From Patescibacteria group bacterium (GTDB taxonomy: Bacteria > Patescibacteriota > Patescibacteriia > Patescibacteriales > UBA12465): a stretch of 64,000 nt of DNA. The notes below the pieces were generated by a model, which was not told the origin of the DNA, made no database searches, and saw nothing but the letters and a program-made list of their open reading frames with translations. Location: positions 100,213-164,212 of the forward strand of contig JAQUAK010000001.1 in NCBI GenBank assembly GCA_028687275.1. Reading direction: 5' to 3'. The position numbers and the translations under genes were made by a program. This document shows, piece after piece, positions 29,302 to 56,013 of this stretch; position 1 is the first letter of the stretch; the number at the start of each line of letters is the position of its first letter.

Positions 29302-32300
29302 ATGAAATTAAAAGCAACAAAAAAAAGTATTTTGAAGCTTCCTTTAGAGTTGCTATTTTTTGTTATCTTGTTTGCTTTTATTTTTATCGCTTATACTCCA
29401 GCTCAAGCTATTATTAATGATTATAATAAAATTACCGGTAGTCGTTTGGAGGCAGGCGAATGGAATATGCTAATACAGGATTTTGTCACTAAAAATAATG
29501 GTGGTGATGTTATGATTGGTAATTATGGTATTAATACCGCCACCTCCTCAGCTTTTGCTTTAGATATTAATGGAAGTTTAAGAGCTAGTAATATAACGGG
29601 TGCTTATACTGGCACCATCAGTGCTGATAATGTTTCAGCCGGTGACTTTGGCTCTGAAACTATGGGTGGTGATTATACTTTTTCTGGGAAGGTGGGGATT
29701 GGAACGACAGCACCTTCAACGAAATTACATATTACTGGGGACACAAATACTATTGGCCAAATAGAAACAACTGTAAATGGTGGGACCGCTGTTTTAAGAT
29801 TAGATGCAAATCCTAATTATTGGGATATTAAGAATTATGGAGCGTCTGCTTCTTTAGGATTTATAAGAGGAACGACGGAGCATATGACTATTTTAAGTTC
29901 CGGCAACGTCGGTATTGGGACGACTAATCCTGGACAGAAATTGGATGTGAATGGTCAATCTATTTTTAGGGGGCAAATGAGAATTGGCGATTCTTCTGAT
30001 GGAATGGCTTATTCATATTCTACAGGGAAAGCTACCATAGTAGGAATTGATAATGGATTAAGTGGATATAATGATTTGGACATTCGTTCTCAGGGAGCAA
30101 CACAGCTATATTTATCAACGAACGGCAACGTTGGGATTGGGACGACTAATCCAAGCGAAAAGCTAAGCGTTATAGGCAATATTGATTTTCCAAAAGCTAC
30201 CAGTGGTTCAAAAATAAGTTTTGAGGGCTCCTATAATCAGCAGATGTATTTAGATTATGATTATAATAATGTTTCTGGGTTTGATGTCTTTGCTATTAGG
30301 TCAAATGGTGGAACAAATAGACTGCATATAAGTAATAACGGTACTACTAGTTTGGTTCCAAGTGGTGGCAACGTCGGTATTGGCACTACCACCCCGGCTT
30401 CTACCCTAGATGTTAATGGTTTAATTAAAATGCGTAGCGCAACTATTACTCAGGGTGAGGATGTAATTAACAAAGATTATTTAGATGCTTCTTTGGCTAG
30501 CACCACTGCTGGAATTATTTATGAGATGGCAACTAGTAGTATTTGGCAGGGAAGTCTAACTGGTAATGTCTATAATGCTAATACTGGCAATGTTGGTATT
30601 GGAACGACGAATCCACAGCAAACTCTTCATATTTCTGGCTCTGCTAGTGGTAGTTATATCGCTGGAAGAATTGAGAATACTGCAGCAAGCGGTGCAGCAG
30701 ATTTTGATTTTAAAAATGGTGCGCAAATGTGGAAAATGGGGGTTAATACATTAAATCAATTCCGTGTACGTGATGATACAAATGCTGCAAATGTTATGTT
30801 GATAGAAAGTGGCGCCGGGGCAAATGCATTTTTTATAAAATCTGGAGGCAATATAGGGATTGGGACGACGAATCCGTCAGCAAAATTAGATATTCAAGGC
30901 ACAACTGGTGGCACGGCAGCCTGGTTTAGAGGAGGAAATTCGGCTTTTAATATTCAAACAAAGGATAATTTAATTGAGTTGGTTAGTTTTAATGGTTCTA
31001 CTTATTCTCCTATTAATATTAGAGCTGCTGGCTCAGGTTTAACTATTGATACTTCCGGTAATATTGGCATTGGCACAACCAACCCAACCACTAAATTATT
31101 TGTTAATGGTGGCACTGGTGATGCAGTTAATGTTGGAGGAGGAAGAATTCGTGGTTTAAATACTACTCCAGTTAATGCTGATGAAGCCGTACCTTTAACT
31201 TATCTACAAAGTAATTATGCCCCTATTGGTTCTGGAGCTGGCTCTGCCTTTGTTCAAGGTGGTAATTCTTTTGGATCTATTGCTAACTTAGGTACTAATG
31301 ACAATTATCCTTTAAATATTGAAACTAATAATGCTATTAGAATGACAGTATTGGGTAATGGTAATGTGGGGATTGGGACTACTAACATATATACTAATGT
31401 AGTTGGACTACAAGTAAATGGAGTAAAAAGTAATCAGAATAAAGGCATTATTGGTGTGATGGACTCCACTTCTTTTGCGACAGGAGTCGGTGGACGAATA
31501 ATATTTGGCGGTAAGTATAATGCTTCTGGCGCAGAAATAGTGTTTGGTGGAATTGAAGGTTCTAAAGAAAATGCGACTGATGGTAATTATGCTGGAGCTC
31601 TTGTTTTAAGCACTGTTCCTAATTCGGGAAATGTCACTGAAAGAATGAGAATAACTAGCACTGGCAACGTCGGTATCGGCACCACTAACCCCACCACTAA
31701 ATTATATGTTAATGGTGGCACTGGTGATGCAGTTAATGTTGGAGGAGGTAGAATTCGTGGTTTAAATACAACTCCAGTTAATGCTGATGAAGCTGTACCT
31801 CTAACTTATCTACAGAGTAATTATGCTCCTATTGGTTCTGGAGCTGGATCTGCCTTTGTTCAAGGTGGTAATTCTTTTGGATCTATTGCTAACTTAGGTA
31901 CAAATGATAATTATCCTTTAAATATTAAAACAAACAACGCTACTCAGATGACAGTTTTGGGTAATGGTAATGTCGGGATTGGCACCACTGGGCCTACAGC
32001 TAAATTACATCTCGGAAGTGTTTCTCAAGATAGTTATGTTTTAAGAGCGGACTCTTCTCAGGGGCTTAGTTTATTTAGTATATATCAATCTGGTTCAACT
32101 GGTAGGGCGGTATTTAATTTAGCCAATGCGGGAACAACTACTATTAAGTTAGATACAAATGGTGATTCTTATTTTAATTCAGGCAACGTCGGTATCGGGA
32201 CGACGGCACCAGTTAGTGCATTAAATATTGTTGGAACAACTGATATTAGTTGGATTGATGGAACTAGTTATGGATTAGTTACAGTTGGCTCTCGAGGTGT

Positions 32301-35300
32301 AGGTGGAAGTTCGTTTTTTCTAAATACTCCTTCTGTTGCTTCTGCTGCTTCTGGTTTAGGATTAAAAGGGACATATGCCGCTGCTATCTCTACAATCAAT
32401 ATAAATGCATATGGTGTAAAGTATGCTGGATATGGTTCAAATTTGGCATTTTCTACTTCAAATGGTACCACTTTATCTGAGGCAATGAGAATAGATAAAA
32501 ACGGCAATGTCGGTATAGGCACCACCAACCCAACCACTAAATTATTTGTTAACGGTGGCACTGGTGATGCAGTTAATGTTGGAGGAGGAAGAATTCGTGG
32601 TTTAAATACTACTCCAGTTAATGCTGATGAAGCCGTACCTCTAACCTATCTACAAAGTAATTATGCTCCTATTGGTTCTGGAGCTGGATCTGCTTTTGTT
32701 CAAGGTGGTAATTCTTTTGGATCTATTGCTAATTTAGGCACCAACGACAATTATCCTTTAAATATTAAAACAAACAATGCTACTCAGATGACAGTTTTGG
32801 GTAATGGTAATGTTGGGATTGGAACGACTGCCCCAACAGCCGAATTACAAGTCAAGGGTACCGGGGGGACAATAAGTTTTGATGCAAGTTATAGTGCAAA
32901 TGGAGAAATTCCTGCAGGTTCCGCATTTTGGAATGTAGGTGGAAATTTTACAATGTTAGGAGACCCAACAGGAGTAGCTGGAAATAAATTAACTCTGGCT
33001 TATTATACAAATGGCAATGGCTGGAGATCGGCCTTGGATATTGCTAATACTGCAGAAGGAGCATATGGTAATTTATTATTAATGAAGTCTGGTGGTAATG
33101 TAGGGATTGGAACGACTAATCCAAGCGAAAAATTAACGGTAAGCAATGGAAATATAAAAATTGGGTCTCACGCAACAATAGGCAATGCTATTCTCGCTCC
33201 GTATCCATTAGGAGGATTAATAATAAAACCGGAATTTAATATTAATGATACAACTTCGGCTGTTTTGCAGATTCAAAAAAATGATAATAGTCCTTTGGTT
33301 ACATTCCAGGAAGATGGCAACGTCGGTATTGGCACAACGGCACCGGGAGCGAAGTTAGAATTAGCACAATCTGGTGACACGGAACAAAGCGGATTAAGAT
33401 TTACAAGAGTTGGGGCGACGAGAGCAAGTATCGCCTTAAGTGCAGCTTCTGGAAATTTGGAAATTGCAAGAGGAGGAACGTCAATAATATCAGTGGGCAC
33501 GAGTAACGTCGGCATCGGTACTACTAACCCAACTACTAAATTATATGTTAATGGTGGCACTGGTGATGCAGTTAATGTTGGAGGAGGAAGAATTCGTGGT
33601 TTAAATACTACTCCAGTTAATGCTGATGAAGCCGTACCTCTAACCTATCTACAAAGTAATTATGCTCCTATTGGTTCTGGAGCTGGATCTGCTTTTGTTC
33701 AAGGTGGTAATTCTTTTGGATCTATTGCTAATTTAGGCACCAACGACAATTATCCTTTAAATATTGAAACTAATAATGCCATTAGAATGACAGTATTGGG
33801 TAATGGTAATGTGGGGATTGGAACGACGAATCCAGAGGTAGATTTGGACATTCATAGAACTGGTCAGGGCTCAGCTTTTATTAGATTGTGGGACACAAGA
33901 AGCACCACTGGAGATACAGTGGGAATAAAAATGAGTACAGGCATTTCTACTCCAGATAAAACTGCTATTTTTCACAAAGAAACAGGCACTTATGGCGCTG
34001 GAGATATTGTTTTCGCTTTAAGTGGAAATACTGTTGACCCAGTTGATTTGATAAATGATGAAAAAATGAGGATTACAAAAGAGGGTAATCTTGGCATCGG
34101 CACTACCAACCCAACCACTAAATTATTTGTTAACGCTGGCACCGGTGATGCAGTTAATGTTGGTGGTGGTAGAATTCGTGGTTTAAATACTACTCCAGTT
34201 AATGCTGATGAAGCCGTACCTCTAACTTATCTACAAAGTAATTACGGTACAAGTGCGAGTGAATTATGGAAAGGAACTATTAATGGAAATATCTGGAATG
34301 GTGACAGCGGTGCGGGAAATGTTGGTATTGGGACGACGAATCCAGGGGATAAGTTGGAAGTTAATGGAGACGTCGGAATCATGAATGCAAGTAAATTAAA
34401 TTTTGGCTCGCAGTTACAAAATCCTCCCTATATTAAGGCTATCTGGAATGACAATAATAATACTGGCTTAGAGTTCCATACTTTTGCTGGCGCTGTTGAT
34501 ATCACTGCTTTAACATTAAGCAAAACAAGTGGTGCAATTACTGCCGCCGCAGAACTAAGGGTAAATGGAACAGGTAACTCTTCAATAGCAGGCAACGTCG
34601 GTATTGGCACTACCAATCCAGGCACCTATAGATTAAATGTGAATGGTAATACTAACATTAGTGGTGATTTAAACGTGACTGGGACAACAACTTCTTCAAG
34701 TTTTGTTGGTCCAATTGTGGGTACGATTTCGGCTGAGAATGTGTCCTCGGGTGACTTTGGGGCTGAGACTATGGGCGGTGATTATAGTTTTCCAGGGAAG
34801 CTGGGCATTGGGACCACTAACCCAAATGAAAATTTACAAATACATTCAAATTCTGGCTCAAAATCTCTAATTAGACTCACAAATGATTCTGAGTTAACTG
34901 GATTTGTGGCCGGCATTGATAATAGCGAAAGCGGATATTTTGGAACAGAGGGCCCGAGACAATTAAAAATAATAGCAAATAACGCAGAGGTTATTAGAGT
35001 TTCAACTTCAGGTAGCGTTGGGATTGGGACGATTAATCCTTTAGAAAAATTGGATTTAAGGGACGGTAATTTATATATCTCCGATTCAGATTTAGCAACT
35101 AATGGCGCCGGTGGATCCATAAAATTTGGTAGGCCGGAAGGCTATGCTTCCAATTGGCTGGCATCAATAGGTTCCTACGCTACTACAGGTTATGATCGTT
35201 TAGGTTTAACTTTTAATACTTCTTATGGAGTTACTCAAGAGAGAATGCGGATTACGCCAGAGGGCAATGTCGGCATCGGCACCACCAACCCAGGATCATA

Positions 35301-42293: not shown

Positions 42294-45200
42294 ATGCTTA
42301 AAATAACTCTCAGAACGACCATAAAAATGTTGGGATTATTATTTATTCCAATAGTTTTTTGTTTTCTTTTTGTACCACAAACATTGGCTGCGGTTGGTTT
42401 AAGTGTGGGTAGCGGCACTCTAAACTTAGGCTCAGCCGAAAATCTTTTCTATGGCAATATTGGTAGCGCTAGTCATGCCTCTAGTAGTTTTTTATTATTA
42501 CAAAAAAATAGTGCTAATATTTTTAAAATTGATAACTTTGGAAATGTAAGTACACCGGGTGTAATTACCGCTACTGGTGGCTTTGTCGGTTCAATTACTG
42601 GCGGCGTTGTTAATGCCGAAAATGTTTCAGCCGGTGACTTTGGTGCGGAGACTATGGGTGGTGATTATAGTTTTCCTGGGAAGGTAGGGATTGGGACGAC
42701 TGATCCAGAATATAAGTTAACTATTAGGAGTGATAATTTAGGAATATCTTCAACGCCAGTAATGAGTTTAAGAAACTCTGCTGCTGCCACCTTATCCCTA
42801 CAACAGAGGTCACCAGCGATTATTTTAGAGGGGCAAGGTTGGAATTATTTGTCACAAACATCAGCGCCTATAAAAGCTTTGATAGATATTTTACCTTTGA
42901 AAAAAAATACTAAACAAGATGTGACAAATTTTACCGAGTCAACTCCATTATTTGTATTTAAGTCTTTGACTGGAGAGGCTGGAGAGGTTACAAACCTAAC
43001 TATTGGAACTGATCCAAGATGGGATAGGTATACTAATTTTTGGGCTGGCGAAGTAGTTCCTAATGAAAATAATTTTTCTTGGCAATTAAAAAACAGCGGA
43101 GCAGAACAATGGTTTAATAGTACTGGGGTAACTTTGTTTACTATTAACAATGTCCCTAAATTAAATGTTAAGACACAGGGGATATTAATTGGATCATTTT
43201 CTTGGAACGCTACCGCTTCTCAGGCTTTACACGTGATCGGTAATGCTAGGGTCACGGGAGCTTATTACGATAGCTCTAATAGCGCAGGTTCTAGTGGCGC
43301 AGTGCTAACTTCTACAGGAACAGGCACAAGTTGGTCTGATATTGATATGACAGATAAGTGGACAAAAGGCGGTGATACTTTAGGAGAAAAGGACACTCTT
43401 GGTTCTATTGATTTAAGGGATATAGGATTTAAAACTAATAATCAAGAGAGACTAACAATATTAAGTGATGGCAACGTCGGCATTGGCACTACCAACCCAA
43501 CTACTAAATTATATGTTAATGGTGGCACTGGTGATGCAGTTAATGTTGGCGGAGGTAGAATTCGTGGTTTAAATACTACTCCAGTTAATGCTGATGAAGC
43601 CGTACCTCTAACTTATCTACAAAGTAATTACGGTACAAGTGCGAATGAATTATGGAAAGGAACTATTAATGGAAACATTTGGAATGGTGATAGTGGTGCG
43701 GGAAATGTGGGGATTGGGACGACTGAGCCTTCAACTAAATTAGATATTCAATCAGTTAAAGCGGCAGTTAGAATTAAGTCTACAACTGGAACAAATTATT
43801 CAACTTTTTATTTGAATAATGCTGGTGGAGATTTTTATGTTGGTAGGAATAATAGTGTTGGTACTGGTTTGGTTACCACTGGCGGGTTACCTTATGCAGG
43901 TACATTAAACGCACAAGGTGTATATCCGTTACAATTCGCCACAAATAATTCAGTTGCAATGACGATAATAAATGGCGGCAACGTCGGGGTGGGGACAGCT
44001 ACTCCTGGAGTAAAATTAGACGTTGCTGATGGTTTAATCCGACAATCTGGATTTTTAGTTTCTGATGCAATCAGCGATAATATGCTTGTGAATGGTGATT
44101 TTGAAATGAATAGCACATTGGGTTGGTCTGGTTTAACTGGGATTGCAACAGAAGGTGTGTCGGGTAAATATGCCGCCGAAATTGTTGGATATCGATCAAT
44201 TTCTAGTTATGATTATATTCCGGTTAACCCCACTGAGGATATCTTTCAACTGGAGGCCTGGGTAAAAAAATCGTATACAGGAACTAATCCGGGATTAATT
44301 TATTTTGGCTATTATGCTTATGACGGTGATAAAAATTTAATAACATCAGCTCCGTGTGGAACCTATTGTTATTTTGCCGCCTCAGGTTATACTATTCCCG
44401 ATAATGGAGCTTGGCATAAATTATCCTCTGTTACTACAGGTGAGGGAACATCGTATCCTAATTTTCCAGTTGGAACCAGGTATGTTAAAATTATGGGCTT
44501 AATTAACTATAATTCTACTGGTAATTCTATTACTCTTTTAGACCATGTTACCTTAAAAAGAATTTATAAAGGACCGTTAATTGCGGGTAATAATTTTTCT
44601 TCTTCAAATAGGGTCGACAATTATCAATATTCTACTTTATACACCACGGCTAATAATCTTATTATTGATACAGTCGGCAACGTCGGTATCGGCACCACCA
44701 ACCCAACTACTAAATTATATGTTAACGCTGGTACTGGTGATGTAGTCAATGTTGGAGGAGGTAGAATTCGTGGTTTAAATACTACTCCAGTCAATGCTGA
44801 TGAAGCCGTACCTCTAACCTATCTACAAAGTAATTATGCTCCTATTGGTTCTGGAGCTGGTTCTGCCTTTGTTCAAGGTGGTAATTCTTTTGGCTCTATT
44901 GCTAACTTAGGTACTAATGACAATTATCCTTTAAATATTGAAACTAATAATGCCATTAGAATGACAGTATTGGGTAATGGGAATGTGGGGATTGGGACGA
45001 CAGCGCCTAATAATTTATTACAAGTTGCTGGATTAATTAATTTTAATGATACAGATTTTAATACATTTATAGGAAGAAATGCTGGTTTAAATGTAGTAGC
45101 TGGTGCGCAATATAATACATTCTTAGGTTATGAGGCTGGAAGATCGGCAGGAGGAACAGGCGCGGCTGATTTCAATGTAGCCGTAGGAAGAAGAGCTTTA

Positions 45201-48078: not shown

Positions 48079-51000
48079 ATGATTATGAGAAATGGTGTAG
48101 TAATTCGTGGATTGTTCTTGATGCTACTTGTAGCTGGTCTTTTTGTTTTTGGCGTTAATTCAGGCTCAGCTGCCTATATTACCGCTGGCAATAGTCAGTG
48201 GCTCCAGAATGCATCCTCGATTTATTACGATTCTGGTAATGTTGGGATTGGAACGACTAACCCAACTTCTAAATTGCATGTTAATGGCACGTCTTATTTT
48301 GGAGGTACTAGATTTGCGACCGCACCAGAAGTTATAAACACTACTGATAGCGGTATAACTGTATTAAAAAATCTGGCTACTTTAAATGATGCCGTTAGCA
48401 GTGATTTAGGGGCTATCGTTGTAGACACTACTATTCCTTTTGTATCTAATCTTTATAATCAGCATACAATGAAATTTTCTGGTTATAATGGATCTGCGTT
48501 TGAATTTAGAATTGGTGGTTATTCTTATGGCGCACCTGGCTCAGAGATTTATACTGAAGGAAGATACTATAATACTTCTGTTGAGCAATTTGCGGGATCA
48601 TATAGAGCTTACAAGAATAATACTACTGGTAATTTGTCTTTTGCTTTTGGGTCTGTTGATGCATCATATGGTAAAATTAAATTTTCTGTAGACGAGTGGA
48701 TAAGCGGTCACAATACTCTTGCAGGTAATTATTCAGAAGGATGGACGGTTTCAACAAAATCTGACTTGTCTGGTTATACGTTATTAGCCACACTAACAAA
48801 TGGTAATTATTTTAACACTATTAATACTGCTTATTTTGGTGGCTCCGTCGGCATCGGTACCACCAACCCCACCACTAAATTATTTGTTAATGGTGGCACT
48901 GGTGATGCAGTTAATGTTGGAGGAGGTAGAATTCGTGGTCTAAACACTACTCCAGTTAATGCCGATGAAGCTGTGCCTCTAACCTATCTACAAAGTAATT
49001 ATGCTCCTATTGGTTCTGGAGCTGGATCTGCCTTTGTTCAAGGTGGTAATTCTTTTGGATCTATTGCTAACTTAGGCACCAACGACAATTATCCTTTAAA
49101 TATTAAAACAAACAATGCTACTCAGATGACAGTGTTGGGTAATGGTAATGTGGGGATTGGGACTACTAATCCTTTGAGTTTATTACATCTTTATGGAGCA
49201 ACTGGGGCAACTACTGAATATATAAAATTTACTTCCGCTGATGGTGGTGATATCAGGTTTGGTAAACAGACAGGAGTTAACAATGATGCCATTATTGGAA
49301 CCTGGACTAATAATAATTTATCTTTTTATACAAATACAGGAGAGAGAGTGAGAATAACAAACACGGGCAACGTCGGAATCGGAACGACGAATCCTCAAAC
49401 CAAATTAGATGTAACAGGGCCAGTCAATATTATAGGACAAACTATTAATGGGATTAGTCATTATCAGTTTGAAGGAGCGACTTATCGGAATCCTGGAGAC
49501 TTTACTCCATCTCTGTTAATTAGACAAGATAACCCCAATCCAAATCCTAGTGGCTTTAAGCCTGCTTTATCTTTATACAATAATGATGGCTCGCTAAATA
49601 CAACAGTAGGTCTATCTTTTGTTTCAAGAGGGCTCAACACAGGAACGGTTGCCGTAGAGTTAGGTGGAATAATGGCAATTAATGAAGTTAATGGTTCTGC
49701 TGGAGGTTGGGCCGGCGGGGGATTACTTCTGTATACTCAAAACCTTGGCACTAGAGTAGACGCTTTAAGAATTTTAACTGGCGGCAACGTAGGCATAGGC
49801 ACTACTAATCCAACTACTAAATTATATGTTAACGCTGGCACCGGTGATGCAGTTAATGTTGGTGGTGGTAGAATTCGTGGTTTAAATACTACTCCAGTTA
49901 ATGCTGATGAAGCCGTACCTCTAACTTATCTACAAAGTAATTACGGTACAAGTGCGAGTGAATTATGGAAAGGAACTATTAATGGAAATATCTGGAATGG
50001 TGACAGCGGTGCGGGAAATGTTGGTATTGGAACGACGAATCCTGGGGCTTATAGATTGAATGTTTCTGGAAATGGCCTTTTCTCTGATACATTAACTGTT
50101 AACAAAGGCGTTAAGTATGCCACACCAGCGGCTGTTTATTTTGAAAACATTGCGCTACAAAATAATAGTTCTATTCCTAGCGGCTTTATTAAATTTGTAA
50201 CTCCTATTAGAACAAGTCATAATCAAATGTTCTCTGTGGACATTACGGGTTATGATTATAACACTGGCAAGAGCATTGATTTTACTGTTGTTGGTTACGC
50301 ATATTCTGGTACGGACTCTATTATTAATCTTGGCTTTTCAAATCGTTCAAGTTTTAAAAGAGAAGTGAGGGCCGCGTTGGAGGATAGAGGTGATGGTTAT
50401 CGCGTTTTAGTTATTGCCTTAGGCGCTAGTGATGTTGATGGAAATTGTAGCGAAGCTTGGTATTTTCAGAAATTTGGAGCAACGGTAAGGTTGTGGGCAG
50501 GGGCCTCAACAAGTTATACTGCTGACCAGTTTTCTTGGGTTAACGGGGAAGCCTCTTTAGCCGCTGGACACTTAAAAAGTAGTAATTTAAATAATCAACA
50601 ATTAGACGGAGCCTTGGGAACAATTATAACCACAGGATCCGTCGGCATCGGCACTACTAACCCAACCACTAAATTATATGTTAATGCTGGCACTGGTGAT
50701 GCAGTTAATGTTGGAGGAGGAAGAATTCGTGGTTTAAATACTACTCCAGTTAATGCTGATGAAGCTGTGCCTTTAACTTATCTACAAAGTAATTACGGTA
50801 CAAGTGCGAGTGAATTATGGAAAGGAACTAAGAATGGAAACATTTGGAATGGCGATAGTGGTGCTGGTAATGTTGGGATTGGGACGACGAATCCGGTAGG
50901 CAAGTTGACTGTGGCGGGATCTGCTAATCAAGTGGATGTTTTAGTTGATGGTAATTTAAGAATATCTGGTGCAAGTAATCAATATTTGAGGTTTAATGAC

Positions 51001-51900
51001 AATACTCATAGTTATATTGATATTGTTGGAGATAGTGGTATTTTGAAATTTAACAATCAAAACGTTGGGACAGCCATGTCAATTCTTTACAATGGTAATG
51101 TTGGTGTCGGTACGGACGCTCCGGTTGCAAAATTGACAGTTTATCAAGGCATGTCTGATTACAGCACTTCATTCACAGCACCTCATATTAGATTACAGGC
51201 TAGTACGGCGGTGGATAATACTGGTTTTGTCGGCATCACTTATGCCGGCAGTACTTCTGATACTTATGGTTGGTCGTCTGGAGCTTTAAGAAGTAATAGT
51301 GGGCAATCAAGTTTCATTTGGAAACATCACAGTGCTAGCGCTGCCGGTACAGAATGGATGAGAATTACTAATACTGGTGATATTGGCATCGGCACCACCA
51401 ATCCAACCACTAAATTATTTGTTAATGGTGGCACTGGTGATGCGGTTAATGTTGGAGGAGGCAGGATTCGTGGTTTAAATACTACCCCAATTAATGCTGA
51501 TGAAGCCGTACCTCTAACTTATCTGCAAAGTAATTATACTCCAACTAGTATGAGTGCTAGCGTTTATGCTACTTCAACTCCTTCTAGTTATAATGGTAAT
51601 CAGGGAGGGTATACCAGCGCTAATGCTTTTTGTAGCGCAACTTTAGCTGGCACCCATGTCTGTACTTCGGAAGAAATATTGCAAACGATAAATGGTGGCA
51701 GTATTAGCTTGCCCGCCAATACTACTCTTTGGATAAATAGTGGACCTCCCGGTTATACGGTTAATGCTAATGATTGTATTGGTTGGACTAGTGCTAGTGC
51801 AACTAGTTACGGCACTGTTTGGGTTAGATTAGCCAGTGGCGATGGCTTTGGTGCTTTGAATAAGTGTGATGGTAGTCGCCGTTATGCTTGTTGTAAGTAA
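48079..51900 (+). CDS. giant secreted repeat protein 3 (~1273 aa) with Cys-containing lectin-like C-terminal domain
   Basis: Start at ATG 48079 (MIMRNGVVIRGLFLMLLVAGLFVFGVNSGSAA). It has four cassette copies and a C-terminus reading CSATLAGTHVCTSEEIL..WINSG..CIGWTS..CDGSRRYACCK. Confidence 0.9.
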   Translation: MIMRNGVVIRGLFLMLLVAGLFVFGVNSGSAAYITAGNSQWLQNASSIYYDSGNVGIGTTNPTSKLHVNGTSYFGGTRFATAPEVINTTDSGITVLKNLATLNDAVSSDLGAIVVDTTIPFVSNLYNQHTMKFSGYNGSAFEFRIGGYSYGAPGSEIYTEGRYYNTSVEQFAGSYRAYKNNTTGNLSFAFGSVDASYGKIKFSVDEWISGHNTLAGNYSEGWTVSTKSDLSGYTLLATLTNGNYFNTINTAYFGGSVGIGTTNPTTKLFVNGGTGDAVNVGGGRIRGLNTTPVNADEAVPLTYLQSNYAPIGSGAGSAFVQGGNSFGSIANLGTNDNYPLNIKTNNATQMTVLGNGNVGIGTTNPLSLLHLYGATGATTEYIKFTSADGGDIRFGKQTGVNNDAIIGTWTNNNLSFYTNTGERVRITNTGNVGIGTTNPQTKLDVTGPVNIIGQTINGISHYQFEGATYRNPGDFTPSLLIRQDNPNPNPSGFKPALSLYNNDGSLNTTVGLSFVSRGLNTGTVAVELGGIMAINEVNGSAGGWAGGGLLLYTQNLGTRVDALRILTGGNVGIGTTNPTTKLYVNAGTGDAVNVGGGRIRGLNTTPVNADEAVPLTYLQSNYGTSASELWKGTINGNIWNGDSGAGNVGIGTTNPGAYRLNVSGNGLFSDTLTVNKGVKYATPAAVYFENIALQNNSSIPSGFIKFVTPIRTSHNQMFSVDITGYDYNTGKSIDFTVVGYAYSGTDSIINLGFSNRSSFKREVRAALEDRGDGYRVLVIALGASDVDGNCSEAWYFQKFGATVRLWAGASTSYTADQFSWVNGEASLAAGHLKSSNLNNQQLDGALGTIITTGSVGIGTTNPTTKLYVNAGTGDAVNVGGGRIRGLNTTPVNADEAVPLTYLQSNYGTSASELWKGTKNGNIWNGDSGAGNVGIGTTNPVGKLTVAGSANQVDVLVDGNLRISGASNQYLRFNDNTHSYIDIVGDSGILKFNNQNVGTAMSILYNGNVGVGTDAPVAKLTVYQGMSDYSTSFTAPHIRLQASTAVDNTGFVGITYAGSTSDTYGWSSGALRSNSGQSSFIWKHHSASAAGTEWMRITNTGDIGIGTTNPTTKLFVNGGTGDAVNVGGGRIRGLNTTPINADEAVPLTYLQSNYTPTSMSASVYATSTPSSYNGNQGGYTSANAFCSATLAGTHVCTSEEILQTINGGSISLPANTTLWINSGPPGYTVNANDCIGWTSASATSYGTVWVRLASGDGFGALNKCDGSRRYACCK
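48841..49002 (+). repeat. 162-bp cassette copy 11 (FVNGG)
   Basis: In-frame copy. Followed by extension A, NIKTNNATQ subtype. Confidence 0.95.
49783..49944 (+). repeat. 162-bp cassette copy 12 (YVNAG)
   Basis: In-frame copy. Followed by extension B. Confidence 0.95.
50635..50796 (+). repeat. 162-bp cassette copy 13 (YVNAG)
   Basis: In-frame copy. Followed by extension B (TKNGN variant). Confidence 0.95.
51376..51537 (+). repeat. 162-bp cassette copy 14 (FVNGG, PINADEAV), last module before the C-terminal tip
   Basis: In-frame copy with no extension. The lectin-like tip follows. Confidence 0.95.
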
Positions 51901-51939: not shown

Positions 51940-54900
51940 ATGAAATTATCAAAATTACTTCTAGTGTTAGTCGGATTTGGTCTCTTTATGGCTATCCCAG
52001 CCTTAGCAGACACCTCTACCCGTGGTTGTGAGACTAACACTTTAAAAAATGGCGAGTATTGTAACTGGCTGGAAGGGAAATCATGGTGTGCCGGCAATAC
52101 TACTGTTTGTGCAGTTGAATCAACGACTGCTTGCCCCAGCAATCCTAGTAACGGAGCTTATGCCTTTAGTTGTAATTCTAATAATTGTGTTTTAACCTGT
52201 AATTCTGGTTATACGAATTGTTCGGGCACTTGTACGGTAACTGGTAGCTCAGCTAATTGTGCTACTTATAATACTTGTACATCGACTTGTACTGCCTGTA
52301 ATTCTGGTTATACCTTATCAGGCGGTGTTTGTATCGCCGCTACTTTAAAGCTCGGTTCAGGCTCAGTTTCTGGTAATACGGTCATACAAGATTTAGCTAG
52401 TCCTCATGTGTATGTGTCTGGGAATAAATTAGGAGTTGGTGAATCTAATCCTAGTGCCAATCTACACATAACTTCTTCAACAGGCACAGAAGGTCTAAGA
52501 ATTATCTCTAGTAATTACTCTCCTTTCATCATTCGTAATTCTGCTAATAATGCTGATTTATTTCGTATTGATCAAAATGGTAACATCACTGCTTTAGGTC
52601 TATTATCCGGATCAAATAATTATTGGAATTTAAGTGGTAGTAATTTATATGCCTCTTCAACTTCTTGGAATTTAGGTATTGGCACCACCAACCCAACTTC
52701 TAAATTAACAGTCCTAGGTACAGTTAACTCTAATAGCACTGTTACCGCCACTGGTTTCTGTATTGGTGCTGAGTGTAAAACAAGTTGGAGTGGTGACGGT
52801 TGGTCCTTAGATGGTAATACTGTTGGCAGGGTAACCTCAATCGGTACTCTAGATAATTATGATATGCCATTTTTAGCCAATGGTGTTGAAAGAATGCGTT
52901 TAATGAATAATGGTAATCTAGTAATCGGAGCAGCCACAACTGGTGTCAGATTACACGTTGAAAGTCCTCAAGGAGCAGTTGCTTTCTTTAAGAGCACTTT
53001 AAACGGAGGTAGCTATGCTGGTTATATCGGTAATGGACAAACATTCTCTGCTGAAGAATTTGGTTTATACTATGCCTTAAATGATACTCGTTTAGCCACT
53101 TATGATGTCACTAACTCCTTATTACTCTATGGTGGACATCTAAATACAGACGCTCGTTTAGTTATTAAGGAAAGCACTGGTAATGTGGGTATTGGGACAA
53201 CCGCACCTAATAAAAAATTGGAAGTTAATGGGGACATCGGAATTACAAGAGGAAAGAGTATTATTGCTCAATATTCTGGCAGTGATAGAGCATATATTAA
53301 GTTTACAGATACAAATGATATTCAATTAAGTAATTATTATTCAACCGTTCTTCATATTGGAGGGGATTCAAATAGAGGCAACGTCGGTATAGGCACTACT
53401 AACCCAACTACTAAATTATATGTTAATGGTGGCGTTGGCGATGTAGTTAATGTTGGAGGAGGTAGGATTCGTGGTTTAAATACTACTCCAGTTAATGCTG
53501 ACGAAGCTGTACCTTTAAGTTATTTACAAGGTAATTATGCTCCTAGTGGCGCTGCTTTTGTTCAGGGTGGTAATTCTTTTGGCTCTATTGCTAACTTAGG
53601 TACAAATGATAATTATCCTTTAAATATTGAAACTAATAATGCTATTAGAATGACAGTGTTGGCTAATGGAAATGTGGGAATTGGGATGACGAACCCAACT
53701 TCAATATTAGATATAAAAAGTCCAGTTACTCCAATCCTAACTTTATCATCTGGCTCCGGCACTATTCTTGCCGGCGATATTGTTTCATCACTTAATACTT
53801 ATATACCAAATGAGGGGTCTGGAATAGCGAACAGGATAGTATCTTCAATTCAGTCTATTGCTGATGTTAATTATGAGGGAGCTCAAGCACCCACGGCATT
53901 AGCTTTTTTAACTCAGCCAGTAGGGGGTGTTGCAGTTAGTGAAAAAATGAGAATTACTGCTAGTGGTAATGTGGGTATTGGTACAACTAATCCAGGGACA
54001 AAATTAGAGGTCGTTGGTACATCAAAGTTTAATGGCCAAATTACTAATTCAACATTAGCAGGAACTGGTAATCGTTGTTTATATGTTGATGCCTCTGGTA
54101 ATGTTTCCGCTAAAGGAGTTGACTGCGGAACATCTACGGGCGGAGATGATATGGGTAATCATATTGCTACTCAAAATATCAGACTAGGAAATTACTGGTT
54201 GTCTGGTGATGGCGGTAATGAAGGGGTCTTTGTAAAAGCAGACGGTAATGTCGGTATTGGCACGACGAATCCATCTTTCAATCTAGATGTAAACGGCTCC
54301 GCTAACATCAAAAATGTTCTTAGGTCTGATAATTGGCGTCATGTGTTATCCAAAAGCTTTACTTCTTCCGCTACTAACGGTTATTTGTTGACCACAGCCA
54401 TACCTTATGACGGAGTGGCAAACAGAGGTATGCATTCGGTTAGAATAACTGGTTATGCTTATGGCAATCAAGAGCCTATTGATTTTGTGGTTAATTTTTA
54501 TCTTTATTCTGGCTCAATTGGCCGTGGTTGGACTAATTTTGGCGCTTATGATCCGGGAACAGTTAGAATTTCTTACGAAGGCGGCTTTGTTAAAATTTGG
54601 TGGTCTAATATAATTTATTATCCTAACTTCGAAGTTTTTACTAGTACTAATGGCGCCCTTACTAATACAGACTCATATTTTGAAGGATGGAATATTACCG
54701 ACGCCGTCTCACCAAGTACTTATGTAGACACTACTTATAAAAATGCTCAACCACAAGGGTTGACCATGGGAGGAAATATTATATTAAATAGTAACTGGTT
54801 AAGTGGAGATGGGGGCAACGAAGGAATCTTTGTGAATTCATCTGGCAACGTTGGCATCGGCACTACCAACCCAACTACTAAATTATATGTTGACGCTGGC

Positions 54901-56013
54901 ACTGGTGATGCAGTTAATGTTGGTGGTGGTAGAATTCGTGGTTTAAATACTACTCCAGTTAATGCCGATGAAGCCGTACCCTTATCTTATCTACAAAGTA
55001 ATTATGGCCCAAGTACAGCTGACTTATGGTCTGGCACTAAGAATGGAGATATTTGGAATGGAACTGCTGGGGTGGGTAATGTAGGCATTGGGACTAATAA
55101 TCCTGCTGGCTATAAATTAAATGTTTCTGGTACAACTTATCTTAATGGTGCTGTGACTGTAAATGGCATCGCTAATGTTAATTCTAGCTTGGACTTCTCC
55201 ACAGGCAGTAATAAGGCTATAAGTTATTATGGTCCTCTAGCCAATGGTTATTTTACTCAAATGCAAACTACTGCTACCTCTGGTTATGGAACCTATGGTC
55301 CGGTAACTTCTGATTGGGCTTTGTATAATAAGTTTAGTGGCACCAACACTAGAGGTTGGATTTGGCAGTTTGCTACTACTAACGTCGCTGCTTTAAGTGG
55401 GCAGGGAAATATGCAGATTGCTGGTAATTTCAATAGTCAAGGAAGTGGTACTAATTATTTTGCTGGCAATGTTGGAATTAATACAGCTAGCCCTGGAGCC
55501 TATAAATTAAATGTGGCTGGTTCAATTTATGCAACTGGTTTAGATATGGCTGGTAATATTACTATGAGTAATAATAATATTACAGGAGTAAATAAATTAA
55601 CTGTTAATACAATTGATCCTCTCTATAATATCAAAGGAACAAATTATTCCACTTTTGCCTCAGCTATTGTTGGCGGCGTGAAAGAAGAATATATTGGTCG
55701 AGGCACTTTGCGCAGTCGCACAGCTTCAGGTGAATATGAGCTAGTGCTTGATTTCGACAAGTTTAAGGAGGGAAGTGACTTGTGGGTTTGGCATAAGGTG
55801 GTTGATTTTAGCCCAGAAAATGTTGAAGCGATAATCACTCCTTACGGTAATTATGCCCAAGTATATTATTTGATTAAAAATAATAGTATCGTTTTCCGTT
55901 CTGATAGAGTTGTTGATATTAGCTATCGTCTGTCTGGTAAGCGCAATGACTGGCAGCAGTGGCCAACTAAAGCAATTGATCAGGCTGAAAAAGCGGGTTT
56001 CATTATTGAATAA
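51940..56013 (+). CDS. giant secreted repeat protein 4 (~1357 aa) with Cys-rich N-terminal region
   Basis: Start at ATG 51940 (MKLSKLLLVLVGFGLFMAIPALA). It has N-terminal CxxC/CNSGY repeats, two more diverged cassette copies and its own C-terminal domain (IDPLYNIKGTNYSTF..GSDLWVWHK..SYRLSGKRNDW). Confidence 0.9.
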   Translation: MKLSKLLLVLVGFGLFMAIPALADTSTRGCETNTLKNGEYCNWLEGKSWCAGNTTVCAVESTTACPSNPSNGAYAFSCNSNNCVLTCNSGYTNCSGTCTVTGSSANCATYNTCTSTCTACNSGYTLSGGVCIAATLKLGSGSVSGNTVIQDLASPHVYVSGNKLGVGESNPSANLHITSSTGTEGLRIISSNYSPFIIRNSANNADLFRIDQNGNITALGLLSGSNNYWNLSGSNLYASSTSWNLGIGTTNPTSKLTVLGTVNSNSTVTATGFCIGAECKTSWSGDGWSLDGNTVGRVTSIGTLDNYDMPFLANGVERMRLMNNGNLVIGAATTGVRLHVESPQGAVAFFKSTLNGGSYAGYIGNGQTFSAEEFGLYYALNDTRLATYDVTNSLLLYGGHLNTDARLVIKESTGNVGIGTTAPNKKLEVNGDIGITRGKSIIAQYSGSDRAYIKFTDTNDIQLSNYYSTVLHIGGDSNRGNVGIGTTNPTTKLYVNGGVGDVVNVGGGRIRGLNTTPVNADEAVPLSYLQGNYAPSGAAFVQGGNSFGSIANLGTNDNYPLNIETNNAIRMTVLANGNVGIGMTNPTSILDIKSPVTPILTLSSGSGTILAGDIVSSLNTYIPNEGSGIANRIVSSIQSIADVNYEGAQAPTALAFLTQPVGGVAVSEKMRITASGNVGIGTTNPGTKLEVVGTSKFNGQITNSTLAGTGNRCLYVDASGNVSAKGVDCGTSTGGDDMGNHIATQNIRLGNYWLSGDGGNEGVFVKADGNVGIGTTNPSFNLDVNGSANIKNVLRSDNWRHVLSKSFTSSATNGYLLTTAIPYDGVANRGMHSVRITGYAYGNQEPIDFVVNFYLYSGSIGRGWTNFGAYDPGTVRISYEGGFVKIWWSNIIYYPNFEVFTSTNGALTNTDSYFEGWNITDAVSPSTYVDTTYKNAQPQGLTMGGNIILNSNWLSGDGGNEGIFVNSSGNVGIGTTNPTTKLYVDAGTGDAVNVGGGRIRGLNTTPVNADEAVPLSYLQSNYGPSTADLWSGTKNGDIWNGTAGVGNVGIGTNNPAGYKLNVSGTTYLNGAVTVNGIANVNSSLDFSTGSNKAISYYGPLANGYFTQMQTTATSGYGTYGPVTSDWALYNKFSGTNTRGWIWQFATTNVAALSGQGNMQIAGNFNSQGSGTNYFAGNVGINTASPGAYKLNVAGSIYATGLDMAGNITMSNNNITGVNKLTVNTIDPLYNIKGTNYSTFASAIVGGVKEEYIGRGTLRSRTASGEYELVLDFDKFKEGSDLWVWHKVVDFSPENVEAIITPYGNYAQVYYLIKNNSIVFRSDRVVDISYRLSGKRNDWQQWPTKAIDQAEKAGFIIE
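53377..53538 (+). repeat. 162-bp cassette copy 15 (YVNGGVGDVVNV, diverged)
   Basis: In-frame copy. Followed by a shortened extension A, NIETNNAIR subtype. Confidence 0.9.
54055..54224 (+). repeat. 170-bp segment shared with giant gene 5 (copy a)
   Basis: Encodes LAGTGNRCLYVDASGNVSAKGVDCGTSTGGDDMGNHIATQNIRLGNYWLSGDGGNEG. By hand count it differs at 8 of 170 nt from 58967-59136. Confidence 0.9.
54844..55005 (+). repeat. 162-bp cassette copy 16 (YVDAG, LSYLQSNY, diverged)
   Basis: In-frame copy. Followed by a diverged extension B (YGPSTADLWSGTKNGDIWNG). Confidence 0.9.

What the first reader, a model, noticed from the sequence alone, without database searches (positions are those of the whole stretch)
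29302..56013. Sixteen near-identical in-frame 162-bp cassettes with two alternative extensions, distributed as a mosaic over four giant surface-protein genes
Seen in sequence. The cassette encodes GNVGIGTTNPTTKL[YF]VN[GA]GTGDAVNVGGGRIRGLNTTPVNADEAVPLTYLQSNY and occurs 5+5+4+2 times in genes 1-4; coordinates are in the features. By hand alignment, copies 1 and 3 plus their extension differ at 10 positions over roughly 240 nt, and all differences are synonymous. Each cassette is followed by one of three things. Extension A (APIGSGAGSAFVQGGNSFGSIANLGTNDNYPLNI..MTVLGNGNVGIG) comes in two subtypes, NIETNNAIR and NIKTNNATQ. Extension B is YGTSASELWKGTINGNIWNGDSGAGNVGIG. Copies 10 and 14 have no extension and lead directly into the C-terminal tip domain. 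The variant states (Y/F, G/A, A-E, A-K, B) are scattered across genes rather than grouped by gene. Every module boundary carries the ~20-nt GNVGIGTT-coding microhomology. Inference: there is ongoing gene conversion or cassette shuffling among paralogous adhesin or tail-fibre-like genes. This would be a recombination-based surface-variation system for a likely episymbiotic cell. It would also make the region prone to assembly collapse.
Basis: partly seen in the sequence, partly recalled or inferred. Interest (0 to 1): 0.75.

Follow-up and report, generated by a model that had tools for sequence, protein, structure and literature searches.

The report
Recombining fibre-adhesin genes of a Patescibacterium
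Four giant secreted fibre proteins of an ultrasmall Patescibacteria bacterium share 16 copies of one conserved "neck" segment that gene conversion keeps alike, and a closely related strain carries different variable blocks between these conserved joints, which looks like a modular way of changing what the cell can stick to.

Summary
Sixteen in-frame 162-nt cassettes (5+5+4+2) lie in four giant Sec-secreted genes of a Patescibacteria MAG. Each is followed by extension A, extension B or the C-terminal tip. The copies are near-identical as protein but only 84-97.5% identical as DNA (mean dS 0.34).

The genes resemble Bdellovibrio MAT (mosaic adhesive trimer) fibres and phage tail fibres. GNVGIGTTNPxxKL matches the MAT capping-loop motif.

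Gene conversion is supported:
- Homology drops to random level at the unit edges.
- PHI and GENECONV-like tests are significant (p about 0.0005-0.007).
- There are perfectly identical tracts of 213 and 204 nt, one of them between g1 and g3.
- All 16 copies are closer to each other than to the copies in a related genome.

The cassettes are the constant joints, not the variable part. A sister strain, about 98.5% identical in the flanks, has five modules of g1 and one of g3 replaced by sequences only 20-38% identical. The breakpoints fall at the capping-loop codons or at a cassette.

I found no silent donor copies, recombinase or DGR, so this is recombination-driven diversification rather than a demonstrated programmed system.

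Verdict: a new variant of a known kind, of moderately high interest.

The parts
29302..35745 (+). g1: giant fibre gene (2147 aa, NCBI PHE20_00620). It has a signal peptide, about 23 capping-loop motifs and cassettes 1-5. Its C-terminal domain resembles that of homologue P0010, which carries PF11962.
42294..47144 (+). g2: giant fibre gene (1616 aa, PHE20_00655). It has a signal peptide, cassettes 6-10 and its own tip domain directly after cassette 10.
48082..51900 (+). g3: giant fibre gene (about 1271 aa, PHE20_00665; the start codon is uncertain: 48019, 48082 or 48088). It has cassettes 11-14 and a Cys-rich tip directly after cassette 14.
51940..56013 (+). g4: giant fibre gene (1357 aa, PHE20_00670). 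It has the more diverged cassettes 15-16 and its own tip.
31057..31383 (+). Unit 1: cassette (31057-31218), extension A subtype E, and the terminal capping-loop codons.
31663..31989 (+). Unit 2: cassette plus extension A subtype K.
32503..32829 (+). Unit 3: cassette plus extension A subtype K. Positions 32554-32766 are 100% identical to 33553-33765 in unit 4 (a 213-nt conversion tract).
33502..33828 (+). Unit 4: cassette plus extension A subtype E. It shares the 213-nt identical tract with unit 3.
34084..34338 (+). Unit 5: cassette plus extension B (DNA subtype B1). Positions 34128-34331 are 100% identical to 49827-50030 in g3 (a 204-nt conversion tract between genes).
43470..43724 (+). Unit 6: cassette plus extension B (DNA subtype B2).
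44676..45002 (+). Unit 7: cassette plus extension A subtype E.
45537..45791 (+). Unit 8: cassette plus extension B (B1). The cassette part is closest to unit 6 (4 differences), whereas the extension groups with units 5 and 12, so the unit is a mosaic.
46143..46397 (+). Unit 9: cassette plus extension B (B2).
46680..46841 (+). Cassette 10, with no extension, directly before the g2 tip. It differs from copies 2, 3 and 8 by 7-8 nt. Against its positional orthologue in the related genome (L081 3355-3516), dS is about 1.0 and dN about 0.18.
48841..49167 (+). Unit 11: cassette plus extension A subtype K.
49783..50037 (+). Unit 12: cassette plus extension B (B1). It is the partner of unit 5 in the 204-nt identical tract.
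50635..50889 (+). Unit 13: cassette plus extension B (B2).
51376..51537 (+). Cassette 14, with no extension, directly before the g3 tip.
53377..53691 (+). Unit 15: diverged cassette plus a shortened E-type extension A.
54844..55098 (+). Unit 16: diverged cassette plus a diverged extension B.
29709..30366 (+). g1 modules 1-3. In the sister strain (SRR9030901 contig L084) they are replaced by sequences of 35-38% aa identity, although the flanks are 98.4% nt identical. The breakpoints lie at the capping-loop codons.
30609..31056 (+). g1 modules 5-6, replaced in the sister strain (20-25% aa identity). They lie between the conserved module 30367-30608 (97% nt identity) and cassette 1.
48261..48840 (+). 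g3 module 1. In the sister strain (contig L083) it is replaced by an unrelated module of about 325 aa. Homology ends right after the GNVGIGTTN codons at 48235-48260 and resumes at cassette 11.

Best explanation
The four genes encode long secreted fibres that are probably homotrimeric. They are of the same kind as the Bdellovibrio MAT (mosaic adhesive trimer) fibres and phage tail fibres. Each is a string of beta-helix or beta-prism modules, and each module is delimited by a capping loop (GNVGIGTTNPxxKL). Every fibre ends in a different tip domain, presumably an adhesive one.

The 54-aa cassette is a conserved 'neck' module: a capping loop, then an extended region, then a short helix at PLTYLQS. 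It always precedes a restart of the fibre (extension A or B) or the tip.

Two recombination processes act on these genes.
1. Non-reciprocal homologous recombination (gene conversion) moves tracts of up to about 200 nt among the 16 neck units, within and between the four genes. This keeps them a genome-specific, nearly uniform family, i.e. concerted evolution.
2. The conserved neck units and capping-loop codons act as homology anchors. Between them, whole variable modules are replaced by divergent ones. Closely related strains therefore carry fibres with the same scaffold and tips but different interior modules.

What is shown: the repeat anatomy, the similarity to MAT fibres, the conversion signatures, and the module differences between strains and between species.

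What is inferred: trimerisation, surface display, a role in host or prey recognition by this likely episymbiont, and the route by which donor DNA arrives. Natural transformation is plausible because a type IV pilus locus lies adjacent, but it was not tested.
For: Family:
- PHROG tail-fibre families match with E values from 2e-72 (g1) to 1e-20.
- Part of g1 (aa 1155-1298) aligns to the Bd3182 trimeric beta-helix (8OJN) at E=6e-7. Bd2133 and Bd1334 also match.
- The AlphaFold model of cassette plus extension A has pLDDT 78.5. Its best Foldseek PDB hits are all MAT fibres, with local rmsd of 0.6-3 A over 33-50 residues.
- The MAT capping-loop consensus V-G-G/N-pi-x-x-P-x-x-x-L (PMC10769870) fits VGIGTTNPTTKL.
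- All four proteins have Sec signal peptides. Many homologues end in Peptidase_S74.
- The context is cellular: PilM, PilB, PilC, a pilin and ThrRS, with no phage head or terminase genes.

Gene conversion:
- Unit edges are sharp, with random-level flanks.
- dS within genes equals dS between genes (0.335 vs 0.341).
- PHI gives p=0.0005-0.0035 for A units and 0.0015-0.0065 for B units at windows of 40-80 nt.
- The GENECONV-like test gives a global p=0.0005. There are identical tracts of 213 nt (copies 3 and 4) and 204 nt (copy 5 in g1, copy 12 in g3).
- The nearest neighbours of all 16 copies are copies in the same genome. Mean differences are 14.6 within the window and 27.1 against a related genome, whose orthologous flanks have dS of 0.6-1.0.
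- Cassette 10 against its positional orthologue has dS 1.0 and dN 0.18, yet it differs by only 7-8 nt from its closest paralogues, copies 2, 3 and 8.
- The pattern is family-wide. Among 235 cassettes in 84 proteins, within-protein identity is 0.62 and between-protein identity is 0.39.

Module replacement:
- Sister-strain contigs L084 and L083 are 98.4-98.8% identical in the flanks. Their g1 modules 1-3 and 5-6 and g3 module 1 are 20-38% identical or unrelated. Breakpoints fall at motif codons.
- In the same strain the g4 C-terminal region is 99.1% identical to the window.
- One sister-strain module is 87% identical to the module in the more distant relative, but the corresponding window module is only 34% identical.
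- In that relative, a single gene combines the N-terminus of g3 with the tip of g4.
Against: - No experiment or multimer model shows trimerisation, surface display or adhesion.
- Pfam finds no domain in any of the four proteins.
- The AlphaFold model of cassette 14 plus the g3 tip failed (pLDDT 36).
- Most copy pairs are fairly diverged (mean dS 0.34). PHI on the 162-nt cassette alone is not significant (p=0.11-0.26). Conversion is therefore episodic or short-tract, not continuous homogenisation.
- The strain comparison rests on short-read Logan contigs from one other sample. A chimeric join at a repeat cannot be formally excluded. It is unlikely, because the shared stretches are shorter than the usual k-mer and L084 would need four consecutive mis-joins.
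- No donor for the alternative modules is present in the window.
- The homogeneity of the cassette could partly reflect selection for a common interaction partner rather than conversion alone.
Confidence: 0.7

Rival explanations
1. The cassettes come from an ancient duplication and are held constant only by purifying selection. They are old paralogous modules under strong structural constraint, with no gene conversion or exchange.
For: - dN/dS is about 0.08 at dS 0.34, which is what ordinary purifying selection gives.
- PHI on the cassette alone is not significant.
- At this dS, recurrent synonymous changes can produce many incompatible sites.
Against: - The flanks are at random identity while the units are about 90% identical, so units and flanks have different ages.
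- The copies cluster by genome, not by position.
- The positional orthologue of cassette 10 is 26% different in protein, so the cassette is not intrinsically invariant.
- Perfect tracts of 204-213 nt lie inside otherwise diverged pairs, with permutation p=0.0005.
- The derived K subtype of extension A is found in two genes.
Confidence: 0.05
2. The region is a programmed antigenic-variation or diversification system. It would have dedicated machinery such as a pilE/pilS-like silent cassette archive, a site-specific recombinase, or the adjacent reverse transcriptase acting as a DGR or retro-transfer engine.
For: - A reverse transcriptase gene (36051-37286) with a strongly structured upstream RNA lies directly after g1.
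- Strain-level variation exists.
Against: - All 16 copies are in frame inside four full-length, signal-peptide-bearing genes. No silent copies exist in the window, and only these four family members were seen on the 593-kb contig.
- No recombinase or invertase was found.
- No template/variable repeat pair with adenine-specific mismatches was found.
- The RT is group-II-intron-like or UG26-like, not DGR-like. It sits next to a PLD nuclease, so it looks like a defence island.
- Substitutions among the copies are not adenine-biased.
Confidence: 0.07
3. The repeats are an assembly artefact. Repeats were collapsed or mis-joined in the MAG, creating false chimeric giant genes.
For: - Short-read contigs do end inside cassettes: L080 at both ends, and L083, L084, L085 and L087 at one end.
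- The region is therefore hard to assemble.
Against: - All four ORFs are intact. Every copy is distinguishable, with 4-27 differences.
- Logan contigs assembled separately from run SRR22315507 match the window at 100% between cassettes 10 and 11 and from cassette 16 onwards.
- A related genome from a JGI metagenome has the same architecture.
- Thousands of database proteins share this architecture.
- The order of the modules across each cassette was not independently verified.
Confidence: 0.04
4. These are tail-fibre genes of a prophage, tailocin or other phage-derived particle, not cellular adhesins.
For: - PHROG tail-fibre families are the best profile hits.
- The C-terminal domain of g1 resembles that of homologue P0010, which carries PF11962. 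From my own knowledge, that family is the phage-type autoproteolytic chaperone.
Against: - No capsid, portal, terminase, sheath, tube or baseplate genes lie nearby. The neighbours are type IV pilus, cupredoxin and housekeeping genes.
- All four proteins have Sec signal peptides, which phage fibres normally lack (my own knowledge).
- The MAT precedent shows that cellular fibres of this type exist (PMC10769870).
Confidence: 0.06

Closest known systems
Bdellovibrio bacteriovorus MAT (mosaic adhesive trimer) fibre proteins (Caulton et al. 2024, PMC10769870; PDB 8OJN, 8ONC, 8OND, 8OML and others)
   Same: - They are secreted, about 1000 aa or longer, and beta-rich fibres.
- The capping-loop motif is the same.
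- There is direct sequence similarity (E=6e-7) and local fold similarity.
- One genome carries several paralogues with different C-terminal tips.
- Family members include forms with and without Peptidase_S74.
- They are proposed to recognise other cells.
   Different: - The host here is a Patescibacterium, which the MAT paper's tables do not list.
- These proteins are up to 2147 aa long.
- A genome-specific 54-aa neck cassette is interleaved 2-5 times per protein. The text and supplementary files of the MAT paper that I searched do not mention this.
- In MAT, 'mosaic' means a conserved N-terminus plus a variable tip. Here the interior modules are the part that varies between strains.
- Similarity to the conserved MAT N-terminal domain was not established.
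T-even phage distal tail-fibre genes (gp37/gp38), in which conserved motifs ('His boxes') act as recombination sites for swapping adhesin segments (Tetart, Desplats and Krisch 1998; recalled from my own knowledge, not checked here)
   Same: Short conserved sequence motifs separate variable segments of a fibre adhesin. They serve as crossover points, which produces mosaic genes with altered specificity.
   Different: - These are cellular genes with signal peptides, not phage genes.
- The conserved element is a 250-330-nt unit repeated 16 times across four paralogues and homogenised by conversion.
- Changes in specificity are not demonstrated.
Gene-conversion antigenic variation systems (Neisseria pilE/pilS, Mycoplasma genitalium MgPa/MgPar, Borrelia vlsE; my own knowledge)
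   Same: Surface-protein variation arises from homologous recombination, and conserved segments flank the variable cassettes.
   Different: - There is no archive of silent donor cassettes and no single expression site.
- No high-frequency switching has been shown.
- All four genes appear to be complete and expressible.
Diversity-generating retroelements, which are common in Patescibacteria (my own knowledge)
   Same: - They target surface ligand-binding proteins in the same phylum.
- A reverse transcriptase gene is adjacent here.
   Different: - No template/variable repeat pair and no adenine-specific mutation pattern were found.
- The RT is not of the DGR type.

Membership tests
MAT (mosaic adhesive trimer) fibre superfamily | Capping-loop motif V-G-G/N-pi-x-x-P-x-x-x-L delimiting beta-helix or beta-prism segments | tested here: met
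   There are 53 motif occurrences in the four genes. The motif definition comes from PMC10769870.
MAT (mosaic adhesive trimer) fibre superfamily | Sequence or structure homology to solved MAT fibre segments | tested here: met
   g1 aa 1155-1298 aligns to Bd3182 (8OJN) at E=6e-7, and Bd2133 and Bd1334 also match. The 11 best Foldseek PDB hits are MAT fibres, but with weak E values (0.01-0.3) and only local matches.
MAT (mosaic adhesive trimer) fibre superfamily | Signal peptide followed by the conserved beta-rich N-terminal domain of about 130 aa | tested here: inconclusive
   Signal peptides are present in all four proteins. The N-terminal regions of g1 and g2 are related (40% identity over 158 aa), but those of g3 and g4 are not clearly related. 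No comparison with the Bdellovibrio N-domain was made.
MAT (mosaic adhesive trimer) fibre superfamily | Diverse C-terminal tip domains, of S74 or non-S74 type | tested here: met
   The four tips are unrelated to each other. The g1 tip resembles that of homologue P0010, which carries PF11962. Many family homologues carry PF13884, Peptidase_S74.
MAT (mosaic adhesive trimer) fibre superfamily | Homotrimeric intertwined fibre displayed on the cell surface | not testable with these tools
   Only monomer prediction is available. No experimental data exist.
Silent-cassette gene-conversion antigenic variation (pilE/pilS type) | Promoter-less or truncated donor cassettes separate from an expression locus | tested here: not met
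   All 16 copies are in frame in four complete genes. There are no further copies in the window, and only four family members were seen on the 593-kb contig.
Diversity-generating retroelement | Template repeat and variable repeat that differ at adenines, next to a DGR-type RT | tested here: not met
   A scan for adenine-tolerant repeats around the RT found only ordinary cassette pairs. The RT matches group II intron-like and UG26 models.
Prophage or tailocin tail-fibre module | Adjacent phage structural or assembly genes | tested here: not met
   The neighbours are type IV pilus, cupredoxin, FemAB-like, RT/PLD and housekeeping genes.

The most novel reading that the evidence does not exclude
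The homogenised neck cassette may be an evolved evolvability device. By keeping 16 junctions alike in DNA across four fibre genes, and also alike between strains of the species, the cell would maintain ready-made crossover sites. Variable binding modules taken up from relatives, for example through the adjacent type IV pilus or competence machinery, could then be slotted in frame into any fibre. That would give an episymbiont with a tiny genome a combinatorial, phage-like way of changing host range. The family-wide pattern of lineage-specific uniform cassettes would then be a general feature of the surface fibres of Patescibacteria and predatory bacteria.
Probability: 0.25. Interest if true: 0.8.

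Novelty: new variant of a known kind. Interest (0 to 1): 0.62.

Why it matters
How Patescibacteria (CPR) episymbionts recognise and attach to their hosts is largely unknown beyond their type IV pili. The fibre genes described here are annotated only as 'hypothetical protein'.

Three results make them worth attention:
- They belong with the Bdellovibrio MAT fibres and phage tail fibres.
- Their interiors differ between strains that are about 98.5% identical elsewhere.
- The exchanges happen at defined conserved joints.

Together these give concrete candidates for host-range determinants and a testable model of how they diversify.

There is also a practical warning. Short-read assemblies break or may mis-join at these cassettes, so catalogues of such genes in MAGs are probably incomplete or chimeric.

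Tried and rejected
- **Pfam on the four giant proteins:** nothing significant.
- **DGR hypothesis:** an adenine-tolerant repeat scan around the RT found only cassette pairs. The RT is not DGR-like.
- **Group II intron:** no Rfam intron RNA in the window.
- **Tandem-repeat origin:** TRF finds no array of the cassette.
- **PHI on the cassette alone:** not significant. At dS 0.34 with 16 copies, recurrent synonymous changes make site incompatibility uninformative, so I used the longer units and tract-length tests instead.
- **AlphaFold of cassette 14 plus the g3 tip with a 6-sequence alignment:** unusable (pLDDT 36).
- **Word-indexed homologue search with the 109-aa unit:** only 5 hits. The exhaustive HMMER search was needed to see the family.
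- **Exact-protein look-ups of the RT and of g1:** not on record.
- **Donors for the sister strain's alternative modules:** none in the window, the fetched loci or the representative proteins. The exception is one module shared with relative M.
- **Literature searches:** no prior description of this cassette, or of MAT-like fibres, in Patescibacteria.

Full report
**Observation**

The window holds four very large ORFs on the + strand. The starts of g1 and g4 are refined using the NCBI proteins, and the start of g3 using its NCBI protein.
- g1: 29302-35745
- g2: 42294-47144
- g3: about 48082-51900
- g4: 51940-56013

BLASTN with one cassette finds exactly 16 full copies, all in frame, distributed 5+5+4+2. 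After each cassette comes one of three things:
- Extension A. Subtype NIETNNAIR follows copies 1, 4 and 7, with a shortened version at copy 15. Subtype NIKTNNATQ follows copies 2, 3 and 11.
- Extension B. It follows copies 5, 6, 8, 9, 12 and 13, with a diverged version at copy 16.
- The C-terminal tip directly (copies 10 and 14).

The copies are dispersed, not tandem. Averaged over all pairs, nucleotide identity is 0.8-0.97 inside the unit and falls to the random level of about 0.3 immediately before the cassette and after the extension. The core observation is therefore confirmed.

Four details need correction:
- The copies are near-identical only as protein. DNA differences are 4-27 of 162 nt. 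Mean dS is 0.34 (range 0.10-0.67), dN is 0.028 and dN/dS is about 0.08.
- Copies 1 and 3 differ at 15 positions in the first 240 nt, with one amino-acid change.
- The GNVGIGTT motif occurs 53 times in the four genes, so it is a general module boundary.
- At DNA level the motif comes in two synonymous codon dialects. The cassette-start form is GGC AAC GTC GGY ATC GGC ACY ACY. The extension-end form is GGW AAT GTK GGG ATT GGR ACG ACK. The two are only 71% identical to each other, against 85-87% within each class.

**Source and context**

The sequence comes from an NCBI MAG named 'Patescibacteria group bacterium'. The contig is 593,020 bp, the locus tags are PHE20_00620 to PHE20_00670, and all four giant proteins are annotated as hypothetical.

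The neighbourhood is cellular:
- Upstream lie PilM, PilB, PilC, a pilin, pseudopilin-like genes, a FemAB-like gene, ThrRS and a MatE transporter.
- Small cupredoxin-domain membrane proteins sit next to the fibre genes.
- No phage head, terminase, tube or baseplate genes were found, and no recombinase.
- All four giant proteins start with Sec-type signal peptides.

**What the genes are**

Pfam finds nothing. PHROGs places all four in tail-fibre families (phrog_9942 and phrog_18345, E down to 2e-72).

A sequence search of the PDB hits only the Bdellovibrio bacteriovorus fibres Bd3182, Bd2133 and Bd1334. The segment g1 aa 1155-1298 comprises the end of extension A, one variable module and the next motif. 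It aligns to the Bd3182 trimeric beta-helix at E=6e-7.

These are the MAT (mosaic adhesive trimer) proteins of Caulton et al. 2024 (PMC10769870). They are surface-exposed homotrimeric fibres with diverse adhesive tips, related to phage tail fibres. Their beta-helix segments are bounded by 'capping loops' with the consensus V-G-G/N-pi-x-x-P-x-x-x-L. Supplementary examples such as AVGIGTTNPSGILH match VGIGTTNPTTKL here.

An AlphaFold model of cassette plus extension A, built with a 35-sequence alignment, reached pLDDT 78.5. It shows an extended N-terminal part, a short helix at PLTYLQS and beta-strands in extension A. Its 11 best Foldseek PDB hits are all MAT fibres, with weak E values but local rmsd of 0.6-3 A.

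The four tips are unrelated to one another. The g1 tip resembles that of homologue P0010, which carries PF11962. Many family members end in Peptidase_S74.

The exhaustive HMMER search found 3436 cluster representatives at E<=1e-3. Most of the top hits are proteins of 1000-5700 aa with up to 31 matching stretches. Those that carry a source name are mostly from Patescibacteria. The genome scan also hit MAGs labelled Bdellovibrionales, Bacteroidota and DPANN archaea. The MAT paper's table of other lineages does not include Patescibacteria.

**The grammar is old**

In other genomes the homologous cassette is likewise followed by an A-like extension, a B-like extension or a tip. An example is the Patescibacteria MAG contig L005, which has 19 diverged copies. 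Extension B also resembles the mature N-terminal start of g3 (W..N...IY...GNVGIGTT). The cassette therefore looks like a neck that precedes either a restart of the fibre or its head. The three-way choice is not a product of recent shuffling in this genome.

**Gene conversion among the 16 units**

Five lines of evidence support it.
1. Units and flanks have different histories. The units are about 90% identical, whereas the flanks are at random identity.
2. dS within genes (0.335) equals dS between genes (0.341).
3. PHI is significant for the cassette+A units (p=0.0005 and 0.0035 at windows of 40 and 80 nt; 0.08 at 120 nt). It is also significant for the cassette+B units (p=0.0015-0.0065). It is not significant for the 162-nt cassette alone (p=0.11-0.26), where recurrent synonymous hits remove the power of the test.
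   - The informative sites show clear mosaics. The 5' half of extension A groups copies {3,4} and {1,2,7}, whereas the E/K block groups {1,4,7} against {2,3,11}.
   - Extension B has two DNA subtypes, {5,8,12} and {6,9,13}. These are discordant with the cassette haplotypes, for example {6,8}.
4. A GENECONV-like permutation of variable sites gives a global p=0.0005.
   - A perfect 213-nt tract links copies 3 and 4 (32554-32766 = 33553-33765). All 22 differences of that pair lie outside the tract.
   - A perfect 204-nt tract links copy 5 in g1 and copy 12 in g3 (34128-34331 = 49827-50030).
   - At least some exchanges are therefore recent and cross gene boundaries.
5. Comparison with a related genome. 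A DNA-pattern scan of JGI metagenomes retrieved two contigs from Ga0307992, L081 and L082.
   - They are syntenic with the window, with orthologous flanks at 76-80% nt identity and dS of 0.6-1.0.
   - The nearest neighbours of all 16 window copies are other window copies. Mean differences are 14.6 within the window, 27.1 between the genomes and 27.4 within the relative. Nine positions are nearly fixed between the two genomes.
   - Cassette 10 and its positional orthologue both sit directly before orthologous tips. They differ at dS 1.0 and dN 0.18, yet cassette 10 is only 7-8 nt from its closest paralogues, copies 2, 3 and 8.

This is concerted evolution in the window lineage. The same pattern holds across the family. 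In 84 representative proteins with 235 cassettes, within-protein identity (excluding the motif) averages 0.62 against 0.39 between proteins. Eight of the 38 multi-cassette proteins have a mean of 0.8 or more. DNA from other genomes shows every degree of homogeneity, from 0-2 differences to about 45% divergence.

**Module replacement between strains and species**

Exact-protein look-ups of neighbouring small genes recovered Logan short-read contigs. Those from run SRR22315507 are 100% identical to the window. Those from a second sample, SRR9030901, come from a sister strain.

The sister strain compares with the window as follows:
- 98.4% identical over 24110-29708 (contig L084)
- 98.6% over 39165-41727 (L086)
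- 98.8% over 46812-48260 (L083)
- 99.1% over 54948-58941 (L087)

Inside g1, homology stops right after the first capping-loop codons (29686-29712). Modules 1-3 are only 35-38% identical in protein. The next module (30367-30608) is again 97% identical in DNA and 100% in protein. Modules 5-6 are 20-25% identical. The contig then rejoins at cassette 1.

In g3, homology stops right after the GNVGIGTTN codons at 48235-48260. An unrelated module of about 325 aa follows until the next cassette. None of the alternative modules has a counterpart in the window.

Three further observations fit the same picture:
- One sister-strain module is 87% identical to the module at that position in the more distant relative, whereas the window's module is only 34% identical. 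Here the window lineage is the one that was replaced.
- Between the window and that relative, DNA-level orthology is confined to the N-terminal regions, the tips and the flanking genes. The HSP edges fall within about 40 nt of a motif or cassette.
- The relative has a single 1857-aa gene that combines the N-terminus of g3 with the tip of g4.

However, the variable elements are the modules, and the cassettes and motif codons are the constant joints.

**Caveats**

- The sister-strain evidence rests on short-read contigs from one sample. Chimeric joins are unlikely, because the shared stretches are shorter than a typical k-mer and L084 would need four consecutive mis-joins. Long reads are still needed.
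- The module order across each cassette in the window is not independently verified.
- Trimerisation, surface display and adhesion are inferred from homology.

**Assembly**

Six short-read contigs were recovered. Five terminate inside a cassette: L080 at both ends (46812 and 48900), L083 at both ends, L084 at cassette 1, and L085 and L087 at cassette 16. L086 lies entirely between g1 and g2. Even so, the window sequence between cassettes is reproduced exactly in Logan contigs assembled separately from run SRR22315507.

**No dedicated machinery**

- There are no silent copies. Only four family members appeared on the 593-kb contig.
- No DGR repeat pair was found and no Rfam intron RNA.
- The RT at 36051-37286 is group-II-intron-like or UG26-like. 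It lies beside a PLD-type nuclease and downstream of a strongly folded RNA. It looks like an unrelated defence island.

**Verdict**

These are real, ordinary-looking protein-coding genes of a known but recently described fibre class, in a phylum where that class has not been described. A genome-specific neck cassette is kept uniform by gene conversion, and there is module-wise allelic replacement at conserved joints.

The recombination logic resembles the mosaicism of phage tail fibres at conserved motifs (my own knowledge). It differs from silent-cassette antigenic variation and from DGRs, whose defining features were tested here and not met.

I rate the finding a new variant of a known kind, with interest 0.62.

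Noticed in passing
window 35746-40168: An island centred on a reverse transcriptase lies between g1 and g2. The RT gene (36051-37286, 411 aa) gives its best hits to PADLOC 'RT' and RT_UG26 and to a group-II-intron-like model below cutoff. Upstream of it, a 305-nt intergenic region folds with a long-range inverted repeat of about 30 bp that encloses a structured core (MFE -86.4 kcal/mol, z = -5.8). Downstream are two overlapping genes: an ABC_membrane-like protein (37261-38964) and a PLD/DrmC-like nuclease (38954-40168). This looks like a retron- or DRT-like defence system with a non-coding RNA. There is no Rfam match.
   Followed up: partly
window 40854-41450, 41447-42094, 47237-47998, 56124-56819; L081 3954-4751 and 10531-11253: Small membrane proteins with a C-terminal cupredoxin domain are encoded next to the giant fibre genes: two before g2, one after g2 and one after g4. 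The pairing of fibre gene and cupredoxin gene is conserved in the related genome. They may be anchoring or assembly partners.
   Followed up: partly
window 58811-61120: A fifth secreted protein (769 aa) contains 219-nt and 195-nt tandem repeats (about 2.4 copies, 90-94% identity, at 59504-60225). It also shares a 106-aa segment at 66% identity with g4 aa 706-809 (LAGTGNRCLYVDASGNVSAKGVDCG...). It has no neck cassette.
   Followed up: partly
window, 53 sites in g1-g4 (e.g. 31663 vs 31966): The GNVGIGTT capping-loop codons come in two synonymous dialects. One opens the cassettes and the other closes the extensions, and they are 71% identical to each other. This leaves little exact DNA homology between the two ends of a unit and might protect the units from being deleted by recombination.
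   Followed up: partly
L081 4792-10365 vs window g3 and g4: In the related Ga0307992 genome, a single 1857-aa gene has the N-terminus of g3 and the C-terminal tip of g4 (72% aa identity). The window has two separate genes instead. This is a fusion, fission or deletion between paralogous fibre genes.
   Followed up: partly
window 17737-28699: A type IV pilus cluster lies directly upstream of g1. It contains PilM, PilN/O-like genes, PilB, PilC, a pilin and three pseudopilin-like genes with N-terminal methylation-type leaders. The MAT paper also raises possible interplay between such fibres and type IV pili.
   Followed up: no
window 51538-51900 (g3 tip) and L005: The Cys-rich g3 tip (…YNGNQGGYTSANAFCSATLAGTHVCTSEE…CIGWTS…) recurs directly after a neck cassette in a distant Patescibacteria genome. 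It has a few close homologues (52-72% identity) but no Pfam domain. Its structure prediction failed for lack of sequences.
   Followed up: partly
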